A model generated the notes under the pieces. That model worked only from the letters and a program-made list of their open reading frames with translations. It did not search any database and had not been told where the DNA came from. The position numbers were made by a program, and so were the translations under genes. This document shows, piece by piece, positions 23,868 through 37,272 of a stretch of DNA of 64,000 nt. Location of the stretch: positions 1-64,000 of the IMG/VR virus record IMGVR_UViG_3300035698_019443. One strand, written 5' to 3'. The stretch's first letter is position 1. Each line of letters starts with the position of its first letter. The DNA is from a virus.

Positions 23868-24503
23868 GTGAGTCGGATTACTATCGCTCGGCAAACTTCG
23901 CTGCGTGGGCAGCCTCTCCGCACACGCTTGACCGCGCTCGTACAGGCGATGGCGGCTCACCCTCCCTACTCCACAGTTCGAATGACGCAGAGCTGGGCTG
24001 GCCCGCGGCTCAACCTCGCTGCCGCGCCCCACATGGCGGGGACCATAACCGTCGCCGAGAGCTCTGGCGGCTCGACCGTCACCGTCAACCTCGACTTGCA
24101 GAGCTCTATCGCCGAGATGTACGCCGCCCAGGTCCGCGAAGACCTCGCGGGCGTTGCCGAGCAGCTCCCCGCCGCCAACGGGGCGTCACCGACTGCCGAT
24201 GCAGCGTCACAACCGGCAGCGACGGACCCCGCGCCAACGGCAACGAACCCGTTCGCGGCGATAGTCACGGCGGTGGGCGGCATAGTCTCGACGATCACCA
24301 ACGCAGTCACCGGAGGCTCCACCCCCCCTACCGACCCGAGTCCTGCCCCAACGGGGCAAGGGACCGGGAAGACCTACGGGGCGCCCGACCCCAACTACCA
24401 AAAGACCGCTTACGAGGGGGCGCCCATCCCTTGGGGTTGGGTCGCGGGAGGCGTGGTCGCCGTTAGCGGTGTGCTCTATTGGGCTGCGCAGAGGACGACA
24501 TGA
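23868..24503 (+). CDS. Putative virion membrane protein, C-terminal TM
   Basis: Ala/Pro/Thr linker; WGWVAGGVVAVSGVLYWAAQR. Confidence 0.6.
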   Translation: MSRITIARQTSLRGQPLRTRLTALVQAMAAHPPYSTVRMTQSWAGPRLNLAAAPHMAGTITVAESSGGSTVTVNLDLQSSIAEMYAAQVREDLAGVAEQLPAANGASPTADAASQPAATDPAPTATNPFAAIVTAVGGIVSTITNAVTGGSTPPTDPSPAPTGQGTGKTYGAPDPNYQKTAYEGAPIPWGWVAGGVVAVSGVLYWAAQRTT

Positions 24504-31020: not shown

Positions 31021-31443
31021 ATGAAGACCATCAACGACAAGAATGTGACGGTGCTCGGCACCGTAGGGGACGCCGACCCCATCGAGTACGGCGGGGGCTA
31101 CATCCTGCGCGAGGGGGACGACGAGCCTCGGGTCGAGTACTTCTACGGGCTCGACACCGACACCGCCGACGAGGAGGGCTACCTGTCGATCTACTTCGCC
31201 ACCGTCGAAGTGGATATCTTCGCCTGGTGCGACTGGGTGAGCCTCGACGAACAGGAGGAGCTCGCCGCAGAGGCCGAGCTCTCTATCGAAGAGTATCGGC
31301 TGCAAGGCCGGTCGAGTGACGCCGTTGTCCGAGCTCGAGTGCTCGAAGACATCGCCGGGCGCTGGGGTTGGCACGAGCTGGACCAATACCCGGCACGGTT
31401 CACCGAGGCTGCGCTACGATCTCGTTGGGGAGGTGAGCTGTGA
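31021..31443 (+). CDS. Acidic hypothetical protein
   Basis: GDADPIEYGGG...WGWHELDQYP; GTGA-coupled to next gene. Confidence 0.6.
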   Translation: MKTINDKNVTVLGTVGDADPIEYGGGYILREGDDEPRVEYFYGLDTDTADEEGYLSIYFATVEVDIFAWCDWVSLDEQEELAAEAELSIEEYRLQGRSSDAVVRARVLEDIAGRWGWHELDQYPARFTEAALRSRWGGEL

Positions 31444-32141
31444 GTACCGAACGAATCGCCGAGTGGATGCGGGAAGAGTGCAGCCGCCTCGAGGCGCAGG
31501 CGGCTATCACGGAGGGCGACGTATCCTCCCGTTTGGAGACGATGGCAGACTGTCTCGCAATCTATTCGGGACACATCGAGAATGGGCATCATCTGCGGCT
31601 TTTCCCGCCGCCCATCGACATCTACGGGGCGCTCGCCCAGTGTGCCCCGGCGCCGTGGCTGCTGAAACGGACCAAGGAGCTCGTCGCGTCCCCTGACTTG
31701 CTCGACCACATCGTTGCGGTGGGTCTGATCGGGCGGCTCGCTGCGGGGTCGACTATCGCAGCGAGGACGATGCTCCGCAAAGTCCTGAACGGCGAAGAGA
31801 CGCCGCACTCGAGGGCGCTGGCGTGGACGTCGAAGCTCAACCGTGGGATGCGCAACGAGATCGTGCGTCGAGCCACCGAGCGCGGTGACCGGCTGCGGGA
31901 CGACTTGGACGACTTGGACGACAAGGCTAGCGTCAGCATGTGCCTGCAACGCGACGACCTCGAGTCCGTGGCGTGGGTCCTTCGATCGCATGGCAACCCC
32001 TTTGGGATCGGCACAGAGTTCGAGTGCCACCTCGACTCGCTCGACGAGAGGTCCGAGCCTCACGGGTTGGACGCCGCCGCGTCCTTTCATCTGCACGAGG
32101 TCAGTTGGCAGGAGCCCGAGGCGTGGTGGGGGATCGCATGA
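31440..32141 (+). CDS. Hypothetical protein
   Basis: GGAGGT RBS; coupled ORF. Confidence 0.6.
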   Translation: MSTERIAEWMREECSRLEAQAAITEGDVSSRLETMADCLAIYSGHIENGHHLRLFPPPIDIYGALAQCAPAPWLLKRTKELVASPDLLDHIVAVGLIGRLAAGSTIAARTMLRKVLNGEETPHSRALAWTSKLNRGMRNEIVRRATERGDRLRDDLDDLDDKASVSMCLQRDDLESVAWVLRSHGNPFGIGTEFECHLDSLDERSEPHGLDAAASFHLHEVSWQEPEAWWGIA

Positions 32142-32328: not shown

Positions 32329-33336
32329 ATGACCGTGATCTACGCCCCCGACGGGATCTACAATCCCGCGTTTCGTGACCTGTCCAACATGAACTTCTGG
32401 CAGGACGAGGACGTGCTCGCCTGCGTGGGGCGCATCACCAAGTTCTTCAAGCAGGGGAGTATCGAGACGGTGTACACACTGCTCTCGGTCGACCACGCGG
32501 TCATCGTCGTTGCAGCGATGGGGGCACAGTGTCGGGTCGTCCTCTACCCCTCGCCAACTATCGAGTGGAACAAACAGTACCGCGCGGTACGGCAGCTCGT
32601 GCGCGGCGTGCTTCGCCGCGTCCAGGCGAAGGAGCCGTCGGCGTTCATCGTCGAGAGCGTCGAGGCTCTACGTCGACAAGCCTACGAGGCGGGGTGCGAG
32701 CGACTCATTATGTCCAACAGCTGGATGGCGCGCCAGGGGCACAGTATCGCGTCTGTCTCGCCCTCCGCCCAGTGGTGGGGCGATGACGTACTCACCCCCG
32801 AAGAGCTCGAGAAGCGAGACGCGAGGGTCCGCCGACAACAGGAGCGCGCCGAGCAACAGCGAACGAAGCAGCGAGCCGCGGCAGCAAGGAGGCGAAAGGC
32901 GAAGGCAAAGGAGGCAGCAGAGCTCGTGGCAATAGAAGCCGAGCGAAAGGCCGCGGCGGCGAGACGAAAGGCGAAGCCGAGACCGAAGCCCGCGCCACGC
33001 CAGGTCTATCGTCCCCCAGAGCCCTATTGCCGAGCTAACCACCCGTTCGGCGACACGAAGGGGGCTGCGCTAGCTGCGGAGAGGACAGACGAGAAGGTGC
33101 TCGCTCTCATCAATCGAGTGGACGAGCATCGGACCCCATTCACGCCGTGGGTCGGCGGACGAGGGGGGCAACTTCATGGCACGCCAGAGCAGCGGCAGAG
33201 GTTGGCCCAGGCGTGCGAGAAGCTCGATCGACACCCCATCGGGAGTACAGAGTTTGCGCTTTGGCCCAAGCTAGAAGAGCCGCAGTACGCGGACGATTAC
33301 ATCAACAGCCTCGGGAACGACGGCTACTACTGGTAA
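32329..33336 (+). CDS. Hypothetical protein with charged coiled-coil
   Basis: Packed ORF directly upstream of RAMP gene. Confidence 0.6.
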   Translation: MTVIYAPDGIYNPAFRDLSNMNFWQDEDVLACVGRITKFFKQGSIETVYTLLSVDHAVIVVAAMGAQCRVVLYPSPTIEWNKQYRAVRQLVRGVLRRVQAKEPSAFIVESVEALRRQAYEAGCERLIMSNSWMARQGHSIASVSPSAQWWGDDVLTPEELEKRDARVRRQQERAEQQRTKQRAAAARRRKAKAKEAAELVAIEAERKAAAARRKAKPRPKPAPRQVYRPPEPYCRANHPFGDTKGAALAAERTDEKVLALINRVDEHRTPFTPWVGGRGGQLHGTPEQRQRLAQACEKLDRHPIGSTEFALWPKLEEPQYADDYINSLGNDGYYW

Positions 33337-33352: not shown

Positions 33353-34219
33353 ATGACGAAAGAGAAGACGATGGTCGAGAAGAAGATCAAAGAGACCGCA
33401 GCGATGGCAGCTACTCGACGGCTCGAACGATCCCGCGGCGTGCTCGTGCATCCCGCAGACCTGCTCGGCGCGACCTACGACGAGGCCGACAAGCTCTACG
33501 CGATCTACGAGGTTGGGATCAAGTTCCGCGATCGTTGCCTCGGCGGACGACCGAAGCTCATCGACGTCGCGATGGCGGCGCTCGAGGCGAAGGCACGAGC
33601 GGGCAAGATGCCAGAGGACGTCCTAGAACGAGCGAAGGCCGACATGCGCGAAGCCTACACCGACGCCGAGAAGGCGCGAGAGAACGGCGACGTCAGCGAC
33701 GAGGCCTACGAGCTCGACGGGGCGAAGGACTCGATGAGCCAGGCGTGGAACGGTTTCTACTACGACGGCGTCGGGATCTATCTCGAGCAGCGCGTCATCA
33801 AAGCCTGCCTGAAGTCCTGCTTCACGCAGCTCGGCATCTTCAAGACGAAGAAGGTCGGACCTGGGGGGACTGTCGGGGCGAAGCAGACGCACAATACAGG
33901 GTTCTTCGTCTGCCCTGGCCGGGTCTACTTCGAGCGCGACGGCGAGATCCTCAAACGCCCCGATGGCTACGAGGACATGCCAGCTCACGTCACCGACCAA
34001 AAGACAGGAGCCCCTCGATCGATCCTCTCGCGCATCGACTACGTCACCGAGGCGGAGATGACCTTCATCGCCAAGCCGCTCATCGGGGGCGCCATCGACG
34101 AGCATGACCTCCTCCGTGCCCTCGCCCTCTCCCGCGACGTGGGGCTCGGCGCGAAGCGGTCGCAGTCCTTCGGTCAGTTCGAGCTCACAAAGGTCCAGCG
34201 TCTCGGCATCGGACGCTAG
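33353..34219 (+). CDS. Stand-alone Cas7/Csm3-like RAMP-fold protein
   Basis: beta1 YEVGIKFRDRCLGG; IYLEQRVIKACLKS (resembles ipgssiKGalR); C-terminal Gly loop GLGAKRSQSFGQF; AAGGAG RBS. Confidence 0.75.
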   Translation: MTKEKTMVEKKIKETAAMAATRRLERSRGVLVHPADLLGATYDEADKLYAIYEVGIKFRDRCLGGRPKLIDVAMAALEAKARAGKMPEDVLERAKADMREAYTDAEKARENGDVSDEAYELDGAKDSMSQAWNGFYYDGVGIYLEQRVIKACLKSCFTQLGIFKTKKVGPGGTVGAKQTHNTGFFVCPGRVYFERDGEILKRPDGYEDMPAHVTDQKTGAPRSILSRIDYVTEAEMTFIAKPLIGGAIDEHDLLRALALSRDVGLGAKRSQSFGQFELTKVQRLGIGR

Positions 34220-34285
34220 ACGACCAACACGAACACGTAGGAAACGCGCGGATAACGACATGACAACGGTCAAACAACAAACCAC

Positions 34286-35143
34286 CGACCGACTTGACAT
34301 CACTTCGCCAGCCTACGCTTTCCAGCAGGCCGGACTACACCCCACCCTCCTTTCCTCGACGACTCGCCAGAGCGCTCTCCACCAAGCTGCGCCAAGCCTC
34401 GCTGCGCGACTACCTATTCCGACCTACTCTTCGCCCTACTATGCCAAGCCCTCCTCGCGACTTGCCAGACTAATCCGGGCTTCACTAGCCTCACCCGACA
34501 ACAGGCCAAACTCCTCTTTTCTCGCCTGCCTGCCGACTTGCTATTCTTCGCCTCACCGGCTCGTCCTGCCGACCTGCCATATCGCCCCCTTCACGCCTTT
34601 CGGCGAGCTCTTGCACACTGCTCTTTGCCGAACTATCGACAGACACACAAACCAAACCGTCCTGTCGACCAGCCGAGCCGTGCCCGGCTGTGCTCCCCTC
34701 CCGACTGGCTACACCCCTCTTCGCCTGCCTGGCCTTTACGACAAACACGACCGCACTACACTCTTCTGCGCTCTCGACTTGCCTCGCTCTTCTCTGCCTC
34801 GCTGCGCCGCCCCTCTCGACGGACCAAGCCGCGCCCCCCTTCGTCGACCTCGCGACAGGCCCGGCTACGCTACGCGCACCTTGGCTCCCGACTCACCAGG
34901 CCGCGCGGCGCTTTGCTACGCTGCCCCTACCCAGCCACGGTCTGCGCTCCACGGCTCTCGTCCGCGCTCCCGACTATCTTGTCTACCCCGCCCCCTACTA
35001 CAACGACGACAATCCAACCCCTCCACGCCCCGCCTCGACGACCTCGCAACTTGCCCGCTCCAGCCGAGCTCCGCTGTGCTCGACGACTGCACATACCCGT
35101 CTATGTCCACCTCTCGACGCACTGCTCTCTTCTGCGCTCTGCG
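34286..35143 (+). repeat. Array of ~23 units, CGAC-(NNNCY)~6-NN(N), modal period 36-37 nt; putative guide-RNA array
   Basis: CGAC heads at e.g. 34666, 34702, 34739, 34775, 34817, 34853, 34889; e.g. CGAC cagCC gagCC gtgCC cggCT gtgCT cccCT cc CGAC. Confidence 0.85.
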
Positions 35144-35157
35144 GTAATCCTTGATCC

Positions 35158-35193
35158 CCGCTCCCAGTCGTGTACGATCACGGCTGGGAGCGG
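35158..35193 (+). other. 15-bp hairpin closing the array
   Basis: CCGCTCCCAGTCGTG-TACGAT-CACGGCTGGGAGCGG (one G-U pair). Confidence 0.7.
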
Positions 35194-35231: not shown

Positions 35232-36227
35232 ATGGGGAAACGAAAGAACAAGAATCGGCGAAGAGGCAAGAGGCCAGAGAACGCGCAGACGAAAGATGCT
35301 GTGTCCGCGTCAGTTCGGGGCTATTTGCAAGCGGTAGAGTCGCATACAGTCGAGCCCATAGAGCAGATCTACCTTCTAGAGAAAAAGGCAACAAACGCGC
35401 TAACCGCTAGACTAACGAGCCACAAAGAAAGCGAGGCGAAAGAGCTAGCGGATGACGCAGACTTTCATCTGCGGACGGAGAGATCGTGGCCGTTCCCTTC
35501 GTTCATTATCTGTCTTGACGATCGGTTTATTACACGGAGGAGGAGCGTTGCTGCGTTTCTCCCTCCAAACGCCGAGCCGCGAGACAAGATCACCTGTTTG
35601 GGGTTTGTCTTCCAACCGGACCGCGTGTCCGCGCTGTTTCGAGTCGGCGCGGAGCCGCGTTTAGTTCCTATACGATCTAAGCAGGCGTGGCACAAATGGC
35701 CACGTAGTGGGTGGTTCTTCTACGCCTTAACTGCGACGGCTGCACTTCGTCGCGTGTGCTCGCGTCAAGTGCTTCCCCTATTCAGCCTAGCCGGCGTACG
35801 CTCCACCTCCGCGCATAACGTCGAGGCGAGAGAGGCGCTGCGTCCTCTACCCCTCCTGTACTACGAGACCAAGGAGCCCACCGGGTATAGCGTAAACGCC
35901 CCGCCCAACCTCGAGACGAAGGGGACACGAGCTCCGCTGCGGTACAGCTACATGCGGCGGAGCTCTGAGTCGGTCAAGGTGCGGCGAGGAGCTCTACCGA
36001 TCTCTGCCGTGGATCAGGCGGTGCTCGCCGATCTCGTCAAGCGGGGGTATCGAGTCTACGCCGAGCCCACGCGAACGATCCGCGAAGAGGACGCAGCGCG
36101 GCTCGAGCTCCGAGGGAAGCGGCTCAAGCACCAAGACGAGTGGCTCGCGATACTGGCGTGGTCCCGCAGAGCCACGCAGGTCAGGCCAGACCTCGAGCTC
36201 ATTCCATCAGTACGGAGGGTTGGATGA
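35232..36227 (+). CDS. Basic hypothetical protein
   Basis: Long ORF downstream of array; no recognised family. Confidence 0.55.
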   Translation: MGKRKNKNRRRGKRPENAQTKDAVSASVRGYLQAVESHTVEPIEQIYLLEKKATNALTARLTSHKESEAKELADDADFHLRTERSWPFPSFIICLDDRFITRRRSVAAFLPPNAEPRDKITCLGFVFQPDRVSALFRVGAEPRLVPIRSKQAWHKWPRSGWFFYALTATAALRRVCSRQVLPLFSLAGVRSTSAHNVEAREALRPLPLLYYETKEPTGYSVNAPPNLETKGTRAPLRYSYMRRSSESVKVRRGALPISAVDQAVLADLVKRGYRVYAEPTRTIREEDAARLELRGKRLKHQDEWLAILAWSRRATQVRPDLELIPSVRRVG

Positions 36228-36546: not shown

Positions 36547-37272
36547 GTGGTACGAAAACAGACGCAAACCAGGGACGACCAGCGCGCGATCGGCTACGCG
36601 CGGGTGTCTACCGTCCAGCAAGCACAAGAGGGATACTCACTCGACGCGCAGCGCGAGAAGATCGCGACCTACTGCTCGATGCGAGACCTCGAGCTCGTCG
36701 ATGTCTTCAGCGACGAGGGGGTCAGCGCCTCGATCCCCTTCGCTCATCGTCCTGGCGGGACTCTCGCAGCCGAGACGTTGTCCTCTCACGGCGCGGGACA
36801 CCTCGTCGGGCTGAAGATCGATCGGTTCTTCCGCAACACCGTAGACTGCCTCTCGAGCATCTCTGTGTGGGATGACAGCGGCGTGGCGCTCCACCTCGTC
36901 GACATGGGGGGCCAAGCCATCGACACTTCCACGGCGATGGGGCGGTTCTTCCTGACAATGATGGCGGGCATGGCCGAGTGGGAGCGCAACGTCATCAGCG
37001 AGCGGACGATCATGGCGCTGCAGCAGAAGAAGGCCAAGGGAGACGACCTCGGGGCGGCAGCCTTCGGCCAGCGCTGGAACACGACGACGCACAAGCTCGA
37101 AGAGAACCTCGAGGAGGTCTTCGTGATCAGACGCATTCGAACGCTGCGGCGCAGCGGTCTGAGCTACGCGAAGATCGCGAAGCTACTGAACGACAACGGG
37201 GTGCCGGCACGACACGGCAAGTGGCACGTCAATACCATCGTTCGAATACTGAAGCGCCCGAGGGGTAAATGA
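36547..37272 (+). CDS. Serine recombinase (resolvase-type catalytic domain + short DNA-binding domain)
   Basis: GYARVST, DEGVSA, KIDRFFR, MAEWERNVISERT. Confidence 0.93.
   Translation: MVRKQTQTRDDQRAIGYARVSTVQQAQEGYSLDAQREKIATYCSMRDLELVDVFSDEGVSASIPFAHRPGGTLAAETLSSHGAGHLVGLKIDRFFRNTVDCLSSISVWDDSGVALHLVDMGGQAIDTSTAMGRFFLTMMAGMAEWERNVISERTIMALQQKKAKGDDLGAAAFGQRWNTTTHKLEENLEEVFVIRRIRTLRRSGLSYAKIAKLLNDNGVPARHGKWHVNTIVRILKRPRGK

What the first reader, a model, noticed from the sequence alone, without database searches (positions are those of the whole stretch)
34286..35143. Removing the CY dinucleotides yields unique ~20-nt strings that read like coding DNA (hidden spacers)
Seen: concatenated triplets per unit give 34286 CGATGATCATCGAGCACGTT (atg atc atc gag cac gtt, MIIEHV); 34407 TACATTGACACTTCGCTAATGAAGCTCCG (YIDTSLMKL); 34458 TTGAGAAATGGGTCAAGCCA (EKWVKP); 34601 GAGCTTACAGCTTTGGAAAT (ELTALE); 34666 CAGGAGGTGCGGGTGCCCCC (QEVRVP); 34702 TGGACACCTTCGTGCGGCTT (DTFVRL); 34853 AGGCGGACGACGCACTGGCC (ADDALA); 35047 TTGCGCCAGGAGCCGGTGCGA (LRQEPVR). 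No two units share a string, unlike an ordinary minisatellite. The third base of each triplet takes all four values but is G-enriched, so it may be a weakly read position. Inference: the strings are target addresses stored non-contiguously, which raises the question of how they are written without Cas1-Cas2. The coding-like look is an impression and short strings can mislead.
Basis: partly seen in the sequence, partly recalled or inferred. Interest (0 to 1): 0.9.

Follow-up and report, generated by a model that had tools for sequence, protein, structure and literature searches.

The report
Phage VIPR guide-RNA array, C-anchored
The odd 860-base stretch is the guide-RNA array of a VIPR system, a CRISPR-related phage weapon first described in 2026 that stores target addresses in the variable letters of five-base repeats.

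Summary
Window 34286-35147 holds 95 in-phase NNNCY pentamers, against 15±7 in shuffles. They are grouped into GAC/CGAC-punctuated units of 4-9 pentamers, and no two units share more than two consecutive variable dinucleotides.

The gene just upstream (33353-34219) folds as a lone Cas7-type RAMP. Distant homologues (23-37% identity) in 13 other independent phage or metagenome loci carry the same kind of array beside them.

This matches VIPR systems (bioRxiv 10.64898/2026.04.26.720920 and .720927). In these, a lone Vipr RAMP binds one pentamer per protomer, and only the variable bases address double-stranded DNA, with a skip at the codon wobble position. This scan has also reported such arrays on other DNA.

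Differences from the published type:
- The fixed letters are C-Y on the gene's own strand, not G-G-Y.
- Three positions vary, not two.
- Units are short.
- Stop triplets are depleted in all frames, on the C-rich strand only.

My limited searches (own genome, IMG/VR exact patterns) found no target above shuffled or chance level. The guide strand, the exact reading rule and the writing mechanism remain open.

The parts
32329..33336 (+). Upstream ORF (335 aa). It is a candidate accessory (vap-like) gene by position only.
   Evidence: It ends 17 nt before the RAMP gene and has GC3 of 0.77. It has no Pfam, PADLOC or NCBIfam hit. hhalign found no similarity to the ~180-aa gene conserved upstream of the RAMP in L006/L012/L015. 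The Atlas search gave only weak leads.
33353..34219 (+). vipr-like gene: a lone Cas7-type RAMP of 288 aa, with an N-terminal helical part, an RRM core and the G-rich loop GLGAKRSQSFGQF.
   Evidence: The AF2 model has pLDDT 91.8. Foldseek top hits are Cmr4, Csm3 and type VII Cas7, with E from 3e-8. VIA-align gives Z 11.9/11.5/11.3 to type VII Cas7, Csm3 and Cmr4. The family has 393 representatives at E<=1e-3. Only the G-loop aligns to SUSP1 Vipr (hhalign E 0.003).
34220..34285 (+). A/C-rich junction between the gene's stop codon and the array. It holds two CGAC motifs and has no clean pentamer phase.
34286..35147 (+). Pentamer array of about 20 units. Each unit is (C)GAC followed by 4-9 NNNCY pentamers. 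The strand is 45% C and 19% G.
34407..34457 (+). Longest unit: CGAC plus 9 perfect pentamers. Variable dinucleotides: TA AT GA AC TC CT AT AA CT.
   Evidence: The exact NNx pattern has 0 hits in IMG/VR.
34360..34406 (+). Unit of 8 pentamers, one of them imperfect.
   Evidence: The NNx pattern gave 12 IMG/VR hits, which is chance level.
34458..34495 (+). Clean 38-nt unit: CGAC plus 7 pentamers, with the last Y shared with the next CGAC.
   Evidence: The unit is unstructured as RNA (z = 0.1).
34666..34738 (+). Two clean units of 6 pentamers each (34666-34701 and 34702-34738).
34775..34816 (+). Unit of 7 pentamers.
35158..35193 (+). Perfect 15-bp hairpin immediately after the array. It is probably a transcript end or cap for the gene-plus-array operon.
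   Evidence: Fold energy is -36.7 kcal/mol, z = -5.1. It has no U-tract, so the consensus terminator scan did not call it.

Best explanation
The stretch is the vrRNA (guide) array of a phage-encoded VIPR system. The 288-aa protein encoded just upstream is a Vipr-type lone RAMP.

By analogy with the solved SUSP1 system, Vipr protomers coat the transcript with one protomer per pentamer. They clamp the fixed letters and present the variable letters, and these address double-stranded DNA of a competing mobile element in a gapped, codon-periodic register, silencing it.

Shown here:
- the periodic grammar;
- the RAMP fold;
- conserved linkage of gene and array across distant relatives;
- unit-wise turnover of arrays;
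- absence of self-targets.

Inferred from the literature:
- filament formation;
- DNA targeting;
- silencing.

My own further inference, at about 65-70%, is that in this branch the guide is the C-rich strand, made as part of the vipr operon. Its pentamers would be N-N-N-C-Y (C-Y clamped) and its units would be punctuated by GAC.
For: 1. Grammar. There are 95 in-phase NNNCY pentamers against 15.4 +/- 7.3 in shuffles. The lag-5 z is 6.1 against 1.0 at lag 3. Units are 36-38 nt.

2. Protein. The model is confident (pLDDT 91.8) and its best structural matches are all Cas7-family RAMPs, with Z up to 11.9. The G-loop aligns with the loop of SUSP1 Vipr that carries D177/W178/R179.

3. Linkage. Homologues at 23-37% identity carry the same kind of C-rich pentamer array directly beside the gene. 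This holds in L002, L005, L006, L008, L009/L010, L011, L014, L018, L038, L040, L041 and L043. L008 shows a textbook grammar: CGAC + k x NNGCC + GAAA, with unit lengths of 23/28/33/38.

4. Turnover. L009 (12 units) and L010 (19 units) share near-identical units in the same order and differ by whole-unit insertions and deletions.

5. Known system. The papers describe exactly this anatomy and report variant repeats: NNNGG, YNNNG, GAC/NN, CAC/NN. I located the SUSP1 locus and confirmed its Vipr against PDB 36pp.

6. No self-target above shuffles, as reported for published VIPRs.

7. Strand.
- The C-rich strand is co-oriented with vipr in 13 independent loci against 1 inverted (L003).
- Arrays abut the vipr Shine-Dalgarno sequence (L005, L009, L010, L014, L041) or its stop codon (this window), leaving no room for their own antisense promoter.
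- A hairpin or terminator follows the array on that strand.
- Stop triplets are depleted on the C-rich strand only: 54 against 108.6 expected, while the complement shows 171 against 178.9.
Against: - Sequence similarity to the experimentally studied SUSP1 Vipr is confined to the G-loop (hhalign probability 11%). No Vipr structure appeared among the fold matches, because those libraries predate or omit it.
- The fixed letters on the gene strand are C-Y, not G-G-Y. In SUSP1 the G-rich repeats lie on the gene strand.
- No accessory gene homologous to those of other loci was found.
- Units hold 4-9 pentamers, fewer than the published 9-16, so short units would address only 8-12 bases.
- No natural target was found.
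- There are no RNA data.
Confidence: 0.85

Rival explanations
1. It is a VIPR array, but the guide is the G-rich (minus) strand. It would read R-G-y-N-N, i.e. the published NNNGG/YNNGG-type repeat ending in GTCG, and would be transcribed antisense to vipr.
For: The complement of NNGCC in L008 is a perfect GGC-NN. The complement here is [A/G]-G-[64% Y]-N-N. All experimentally verified vrRNAs are G-anchored. In L003 the G-rich strand is the gene strand.
Against: This would put the array antisense to its gene in 13 of 14 loci, with no intergenic room for a promoter where arrays abut the Shine-Dalgarno sequence or stop codon. On this reading the Y3 position would be pyrimidine only 52-69% of the time, whereas the solved pocket excludes purines; on the C-strand reading it is 100% pyrimidine. 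Stop-triplet depletion is specific to the C-rich strand. The G-rich strand folds more strongly.
Confidence: 0.3
2. It is a periodic protein-binding scaffold or decoy with no addressing function. The fixed letters would recruit the RAMP (or Rho, or a host protein) and the variable letters would be mere spacers, as in the TRAP-binding (G/U)AG repeats.
For: No target was found. Many units are too short to specify a unique site. The first pentamer after the punctuation is family-biased: TTG here and AAACC in L009/L010.
Against: Every unit is different. Arrays turn over by whole units while keeping the scaffold. The homologous published system is programmable through exactly these positions. A C-rich Rho-loading site would need neither strict 5-nt phase nor GAC punctuation.
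Confidence: 0.08
3. It is protein-coding: ORF 34104-35147 (347 aa) or another of the open frames is a real gene.
For: Long ORFs cover the array in all three + frames, and stop triplets are depleted.
Against: The period is 5, not 3. GC3 is 0.64 against about 0.8 for the phage's genes. Unit lengths differ in 5-nt steps in relatives. All frames are equally open. The translation is low-complexity.
Confidence: 0.03
4. It is a degenerate or miniature CRISPR array.
For: A RAMP gene sits alongside, and the units are of spacer-like length (36-38 nt).
Against: There is no repeat longer than the 4-nt CGAC. Tandem Repeats Finder and Rfam find nothing. Neighbouring ORFs gave no cas-family hit. The internal 5-nt phase is foreign to CRISPR spacers.
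Confidence: 0.01

Closest known systems
VIPR systems (Vipr + vrRNA + vap). Best studied: type II of Escherichia phage SUSP1, NC_028808 about 27.5-29.5 kb, PDB 36pp. Sources: bioRxiv 10.64898/2026.04.26.720920 and 10.64898/2026.04.26.720927.
   Same: Both are phage-encoded and have a single small Cas7-like RAMP with a G-loop. Long non-coding flanks are made of tandem pentamers with fixed and hypervariable positions. Each guide is unique. There is no Cas1-Cas2 and no self-targeting. The array and the gene lie on one strand.
   Different: The fixed letters are C-Y (a weak G before them) instead of G-G-Y on the gene strand. Three positions vary instead of two. Units hold 4-9 pentamers and are punctuated only by (C)GAC; SUSP1 has 9-16 pentamers plus a structured pseudoknot tail of about 40 nt. 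The protein is 288 aa against 195 aa, and sequence similarity is limited to the G-loop. No recognisable vap1 is present. Stop triplets are avoided here but are frequent in SUSP1 guides (GGTAA).
Non-canonical VIPR repeat classes: NNNGG, YNNNG and NNNNG in 10.64898/2026.04.26.720920; GAC/NN, CAC/NN, WGT/NN and TGH/NN in 10.64898/2026.10.21.760802. Also the 'staggered' vrRNA arrays.
   Same: These share the five-base period with other fixed letters next to a Vipr-like fold. They also include back-to-back units in which the end of one marks the start of the next.
   Different: I could not see the figures or tables, so I cannot tell whether this exact C-Y / GAC-punctuated class is among them. If it is written on the opposite strand, it would read as the published NNNGG class.
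Class 1 CRISPR Cas7-crRNA backbones (Csm3, Cmr4, type VII Cas7).
   Same: They have the same RAMP fold (Z 11-12). One protomer binds per fixed step of guide RNA, and a thumb flips bases out at each step.
   Different: The step is 6 nt with 5 paired bases. Guides are contiguous spacers between long repeats, written by Cas1-Cas2. Effectors are multi-subunit.

Membership tests
VIPR | A lone RAMP (single RRM core, G-rich loop, thumb, helical bundle) with no other cas genes | tested here: met
   The AF2 model has pLDDT 91.8, with N-terminal helices plus a beta-sheet core. The best fold matches are all Cas7-family. Neighbouring ORFs have no cas, Pfam or PADLOC hits.
VIPR | Detectable homology to an experimentally characterised Vipr (SUSP1, PDB 36pp) | tested here: inconclusive
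   hhalign of the 76-sequence family profile against SUSP1 Vipr matches only the G-loop region (E 0.003, probability 11%). A profile search of PDB sequences did not list 36pp. The papers state that Viprs are too divergent for sequence methods.
VIPR | Flanking tandem pentanucleotide repeats with conserved and hypervariable positions | tested here: met
   for this window. for 13 related loci.
VIPR | Repeat consensus GGY/NN (or a published related consensus) on the transcribed strand | tested here: inconclusive
   The gene strand reads (g)CY/NN. The opposite strand reads RGy/NN, which would fit the published NNNGG/YNNGG classes. The transcribed strand was not measured.
VIPR | An adjacent vap accessory gene | tested here: inconclusive
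   The 335-aa ORF at 32329-33336 is adjacent but has no similarity to the conserved neighbour of other loci and no family assignment.
VIPR | Encoded by a virus or provirus | tested here: met
   The window lies in a 104,264-bp IMG/VR virus record with direct terminal repeats, estimated 100% complete.
VIPR | Guides match other mobile elements under the 1-nt-skip rule, and none match the element's own genome | tested here: inconclusive
   No self-match exceeds shuffles. External searches were limited to exact IUPAC patterns in IMG/VR: 0 hits for the 18-base guide and 12 chance-level hits for the 16-base guide, with no convergence of guides on one contig.
VIPR | vrRNAs are expressed, co-purify with Vipr and direct DNA binding or silencing | not testable with these tools
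This needs bench work.
CRISPR-Cas | Direct repeats of about 24-40 nt separating spacers, plus a Cas1-Cas2 adaptation module | tested here: not met
   There is no repeat beyond CGAC, no Rfam hit and no cas family in the neighbouring ORFs.

The most novel reading that the evidence does not exclude
This branch of VIPR may use a different code and biogenesis from the published one.
- The guide would be the C-rich sense strand of the vipr operon.
- Only C-Y would be clamped, and all three variable bases would be presented, so each pentamer addresses a whole codon-sized triplet (contiguous, 0-skip) rather than NN plus a skip.
- The array would be kept free of stop codons in all frames because it is traversed by ribosomes, or must evade Rho or termination-linked decay, while embedded in the operon.
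Probability: 0.2. Interest if true: 0.7.

Novelty: new variant of a known kind. Interest (0 to 1): 0.42.

Why it matters
VIPR is a months-old class of minimal RNA-guided DNA binders, proposed as the ancestor of CRISPR effectors. This locus and its relatives suggest a large, uncultured, high-GC branch. The family has 393 clusters at 50% identity.

In this branch the clamped letters, the number of presented bases, the unit length and the punctuation all differ from the characterised type. If the C-anchored, three-base reading is real, it would widen the design rules for programmable DNA recognition. It would also show that the protein's base-clamping pocket is evolvable.

The strand-specific avoidance of stop triplets is a new, testable clue to how such arrays are expressed inside operons. 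As a discovery in itself, however, the 'hidden spacer' principle is already published.

Tried and rejected
1. Self-targeting. Decoded triplet strings, gapped raw units and NN strings under skip 0-3 were searched against the 104-kb genome. None exceeded triplet-order shuffles.

2. IMG/VR exact NNx patterns. The 9-pentamer guide gave 0 hits. The 8-pentamer guide gave 12 hits, about the chance number.
- One hit contig (IMGVR_UViG_3300021431_000295) also matched the neighbouring guide at 15/18, and both matches were in frame with ORFs.
- The other 16 guides were at chance on the full 32-kb contig, and the third letters matched only 1/7.
- I rejected it as not significant.

3. Codon-model likelihoods for N1N2 and N1N2N3 in six phase and orientation models. 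The wobble-skip models were best in 5 well-parsed arrays, but the orientation differed between arrays and margins were modest. This was not decisive.

4. Reading the in-phase stop avoidance as proof that triplets are copied codons. I weakened this claim because stops spanning Y5-N1-N2 are depleted too.

5. Accessory-gene search by all-against-all BLAST and hhalign across loci. Nothing is shared with this window apart from the RAMP.

6. Rfam, Pfam, NCBIfam, PHROGs and PADLOC gave no family beyond weak RAMP or Csm4 G-loop hits.

7. Host identification via genome contigs. There were no relatives of the window protein and one uncultured proteobacterial MAG for a sub-family. In cultured phages the only hit was Microcystis phage Mae-JY09.

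8. Tools unavailable:
- Two related-loci runs failed for lack of a conserved stretch.

Full report
**What is there.**
Window 34286-35147 is a strongly C-rich, G-poor stretch (C 45%, G 19%). It begins 2 nt after the stop codon of a 288-aa ORF (33353-34219) and ends at a perfect 15-bp hairpin (35158-35193; -36.7 kcal/mol, z -5.1).

Its autocorrelation peaks at lag 5 (z 6.1), lag 10 (3.7) and lag 36 (4.8), but not at lag 3 (1.0). Splitting at CGAC gives units of mostly 36-38 nt, each reading CGAC followed by 4-9 pentamers of the form N-N-N-C-Y.

Ninety-five pentamers lie in runs of four or more, against 15.4 +/- 7.3 in dinucleotide-preserving shuffles. No other part of the 104-kb genome has such an array.

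Column composition:

| Position | Composition |
|---|---|
| 1 | uniform |
| 2 | 43% C |
| 3 | 42% G |
| 4 | always C |
| 5 | T 58% / C 42% |

No two units share more than two consecutive variable dinucleotides. Tandem Repeats Finder and Rfam see nothing.

**The neighbouring protein.**
The 288-aa product has no Pfam, NCBIfam or PHROG family. It gives only marginal hits of its C-terminal GLGAKRSQSFGQF loop to Csm4/RAMP models.

An exhaustive HMMER search found 393 cluster representatives. With 76 of them as the alignment, AlphaFold2 gave a confident model (pLDDT 91.8). Its best matches by two aligners are all Cas7-family RAMPs:
- Cmr4, Csm3 and type VII Cas7, with Foldseek E down to 3e-8;
- VIA-align Z of 11.9, 11.5 and 11.3.

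The window belongs to a complete 104,264-bp virus record with terminal repeats.

**Conservation of the pair.**
Distant homologues (23-37% identity) from IMG/VR, metagenomes and one MAG carry the same kind of array directly beside the gene.
- L008 is the clearest: CGAC + k x NNGCC + GAAA, with unit lengths 23, 28, 33 and 38.
- The punctuation differs by lineage: CGAC here, CAGAC in L009/L010, TTGCAAC in L040 and GTGACA in L038. It always ends in AC.
- L009 and L010 are related phages. L009's 12 units nearly all recur in the same order among L010's 19, so arrays change by insertion or loss of whole units.

**Identification.**
A look-up of earlier notes of this scan pointed to VIPR systems. I then read the sources myself.

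The papers report the following:
- VIPR loci hold a lone ancestral RAMP (Vipr), usually one accessory gene (vap), and long flanks encoding vrRNAs made of tandem GGY/NN pentamers.
- One Vipr protomer binds each pentamer and flips out GGY.
- The NN dinucleotides pair with double-stranded DNA while every third target base is skipped, usually the codon wobble position.
- Natural targets are competing phages, satellites and prophages.
- Seven types, 'staggered' back-to-back arrays and variant repeats (NNNGG, YNNNG, NNNNG; GAC/NN, CAC/NN and others) are reported.

I located the SUSP1 locus (NC_028808, about 27.5-29.5 kb). I confirmed that its 195-aa gene product is the 'SUSP1 Vipr protein' of PDB 36pp, and saw its GGY/NN repeats on the gene strand.

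The present locus has the same anatomy, so I file it as a VIPR system. Two caveats apply. Direct sequence similarity to SUSP1 Vipr is limited to the G-loop. No vap homologue was recognised.

**How this bears on the finding.**
Dropping C-Y and concatenating triplets gives strings with the 3-nt period of the published target register (NN + one skipped base).

What I could not do is show a target:
- The phage's own genome gives nothing above order-shuffled guides under skip 0-3, which agrees with the reported absence of self-targeting.
- In IMG/VR the 18-base pattern of the 9-pentamer unit has no exact hit.
- The 16-base pattern of the 8-pentamer unit has 12 hits, which is chance level.
- One hit contig also matched the adjacent guide at 15/18, in frame. 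The remaining guides were at chance on the whole contig, so I do not count it.

**Is the third letter read, and do the strings 'read like coding DNA'?**
In relatives the third position is barely biased (L002, L009, L010). Its G+C content broadly follows the G+C of the locus: 0.36-0.40 at 52-54% GC, 0.60 here and 0.69 in L008 (L014, 0.42 at 62%, departs). It therefore behaves more like a variable than a clamped position.

In-phase triplets avoid stop codons:
- Across nine arrays there are 2 stops against 10.1 expected (P = 0.0003).
- TA-purine occurs 0 of 9 times, against 69 of 105 for the same context after A, C or G.
- This window alone has 0 against 2.8 expected (P = 0.014).
- A small replicate set goes the same way but is underpowered.

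However, stop triplets that span the Y of one pentamer and the next two letters are depleted as well: 7 against 16.9 expected (P = 0.0013). In this window Y is T in only 2 of 13 cases before AA/AG/GA, against 43 of 71 otherwise (P = 0.005).

Overall the C-rich strand has 54 stop triplets against 108.6 expected, while its complement has 171 against 178.9. From 34489 to 35145 no frame of the + strand contains a stop.

So the coding-like look is real, but it is a property of all frames rather than proof that the triplets are codons. SUSP1 guides show no such avoidance, since GGTAA is frequent in them. I cannot explain this. Exposure of the operon transcript to ribosomes or Rho is my best guess.

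**Which strand is the guide?**
Read on the minus strand, the pentamer is [A/G]-G-y-N-N, close to published consensus forms. Read on the plus strand it is (g)-C-Y-N-N. The variable dinucleotide is the same either way, so target searches do not discriminate.

The following points favour the C-rich plus strand:
- It is co-oriented with vipr in 13 independent loci, against one inverted (L003).
- In L005, L009, L010, L014 and L041 the array runs from the upstream gene's stop codon to within about 20 nt of the vipr Shine-Dalgarno sequence. Here it starts 2 nt after the vipr stop codon.
- A hairpin or terminator follows it on that strand.
- The pyrimidine position is 100% pyrimidine on this reading, as the solved pocket requires.
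- Stop-triplet avoidance is specific to this strand and is absent in the inverted L003 array.

I put the C-anchored reading at about 65-70%. No RNA data could be obtained.

**Verdict.**
The locus is a VIPR system of a divergent branch that is probably C-anchored and GAC-punctuated. Still open are the natural targets, the reading rule for the third base, the guide strand, the accessory gene and the way new units arise.

Noticed in passing
window 34286-35147 (+); also L008:3030-4340, L010:3350-3945, L002:6790-7240: TAA/TAG/TGA are depleted about two-fold in all three frames, on the C-rich strand only (54 against 108.6 expected; the complement shows 171 against 178.9). Window 34489-35145 has no stop in any + frame. 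The choice of C or T at the Y position avoids creating stops. The inverted array of L003 and the AT-rich L038 do not show the depletion. This is unexplained.
   Followed up: partly
L009:3290-3645 versus L010:3350-3945: Two related phages share near-identical array units in the same order. L010 has seven extra units, so arrays evolve by whole-unit gain or loss, as CRISPR arrays do, without any known adaptation genes.
   Followed up: partly
L040:3300-3730; L009/L010; L038:2270-2490; L008:3030-4340: The unit punctuation is lineage-specific but always ends in AC: CGAC, CAGAC, TTGCAAC, GTGACA. The first pentamer after it is biased: TTG here, AAACC in L009/L010, and A-rich in L008. This suggests a short handle.
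   Followed up: no
window 35232-36227 (+) and 36547-37272 (+): Downstream of the array lie a 331-aa ORF with atypically low GC3 (0.66) and no family, then a serine recombinase (Resolvase, E 1e-34). The VIPR block may sit at the edge of a mobile or integration module.
   Followed up: no
L036/L037 (IMGVR_UViG_3300021431_000295) 24123-24145 (-) and 31422-31447 (-): Adjacent guides 34364 and 34411 match this 32-kb viral contig at 16/16 and 15/18 variable bases, both in frame with ORFs. It was selected from 12 chance-level hits and other guides do not follow, so it is only a weak lead.
   Followed up: yes
PP395641.1 37740-38456 (Microcystis phage Mae-JY09): This is the only cultured phage in the collection with a homologue of the RAMP (28% identity, E 6e-6, annotated as hypothetical). 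It could serve as a laboratory entry point to this branch.
   Followed up: no
L006:3224-3766, L012:3408-3956, L015:739-1398: A conserved ~180-aa gene sits immediately upstream of the RAMP in three loci. It is a candidate accessory (vap-like) gene of a sub-branch and is not detectable in this window.
   Followed up: partly
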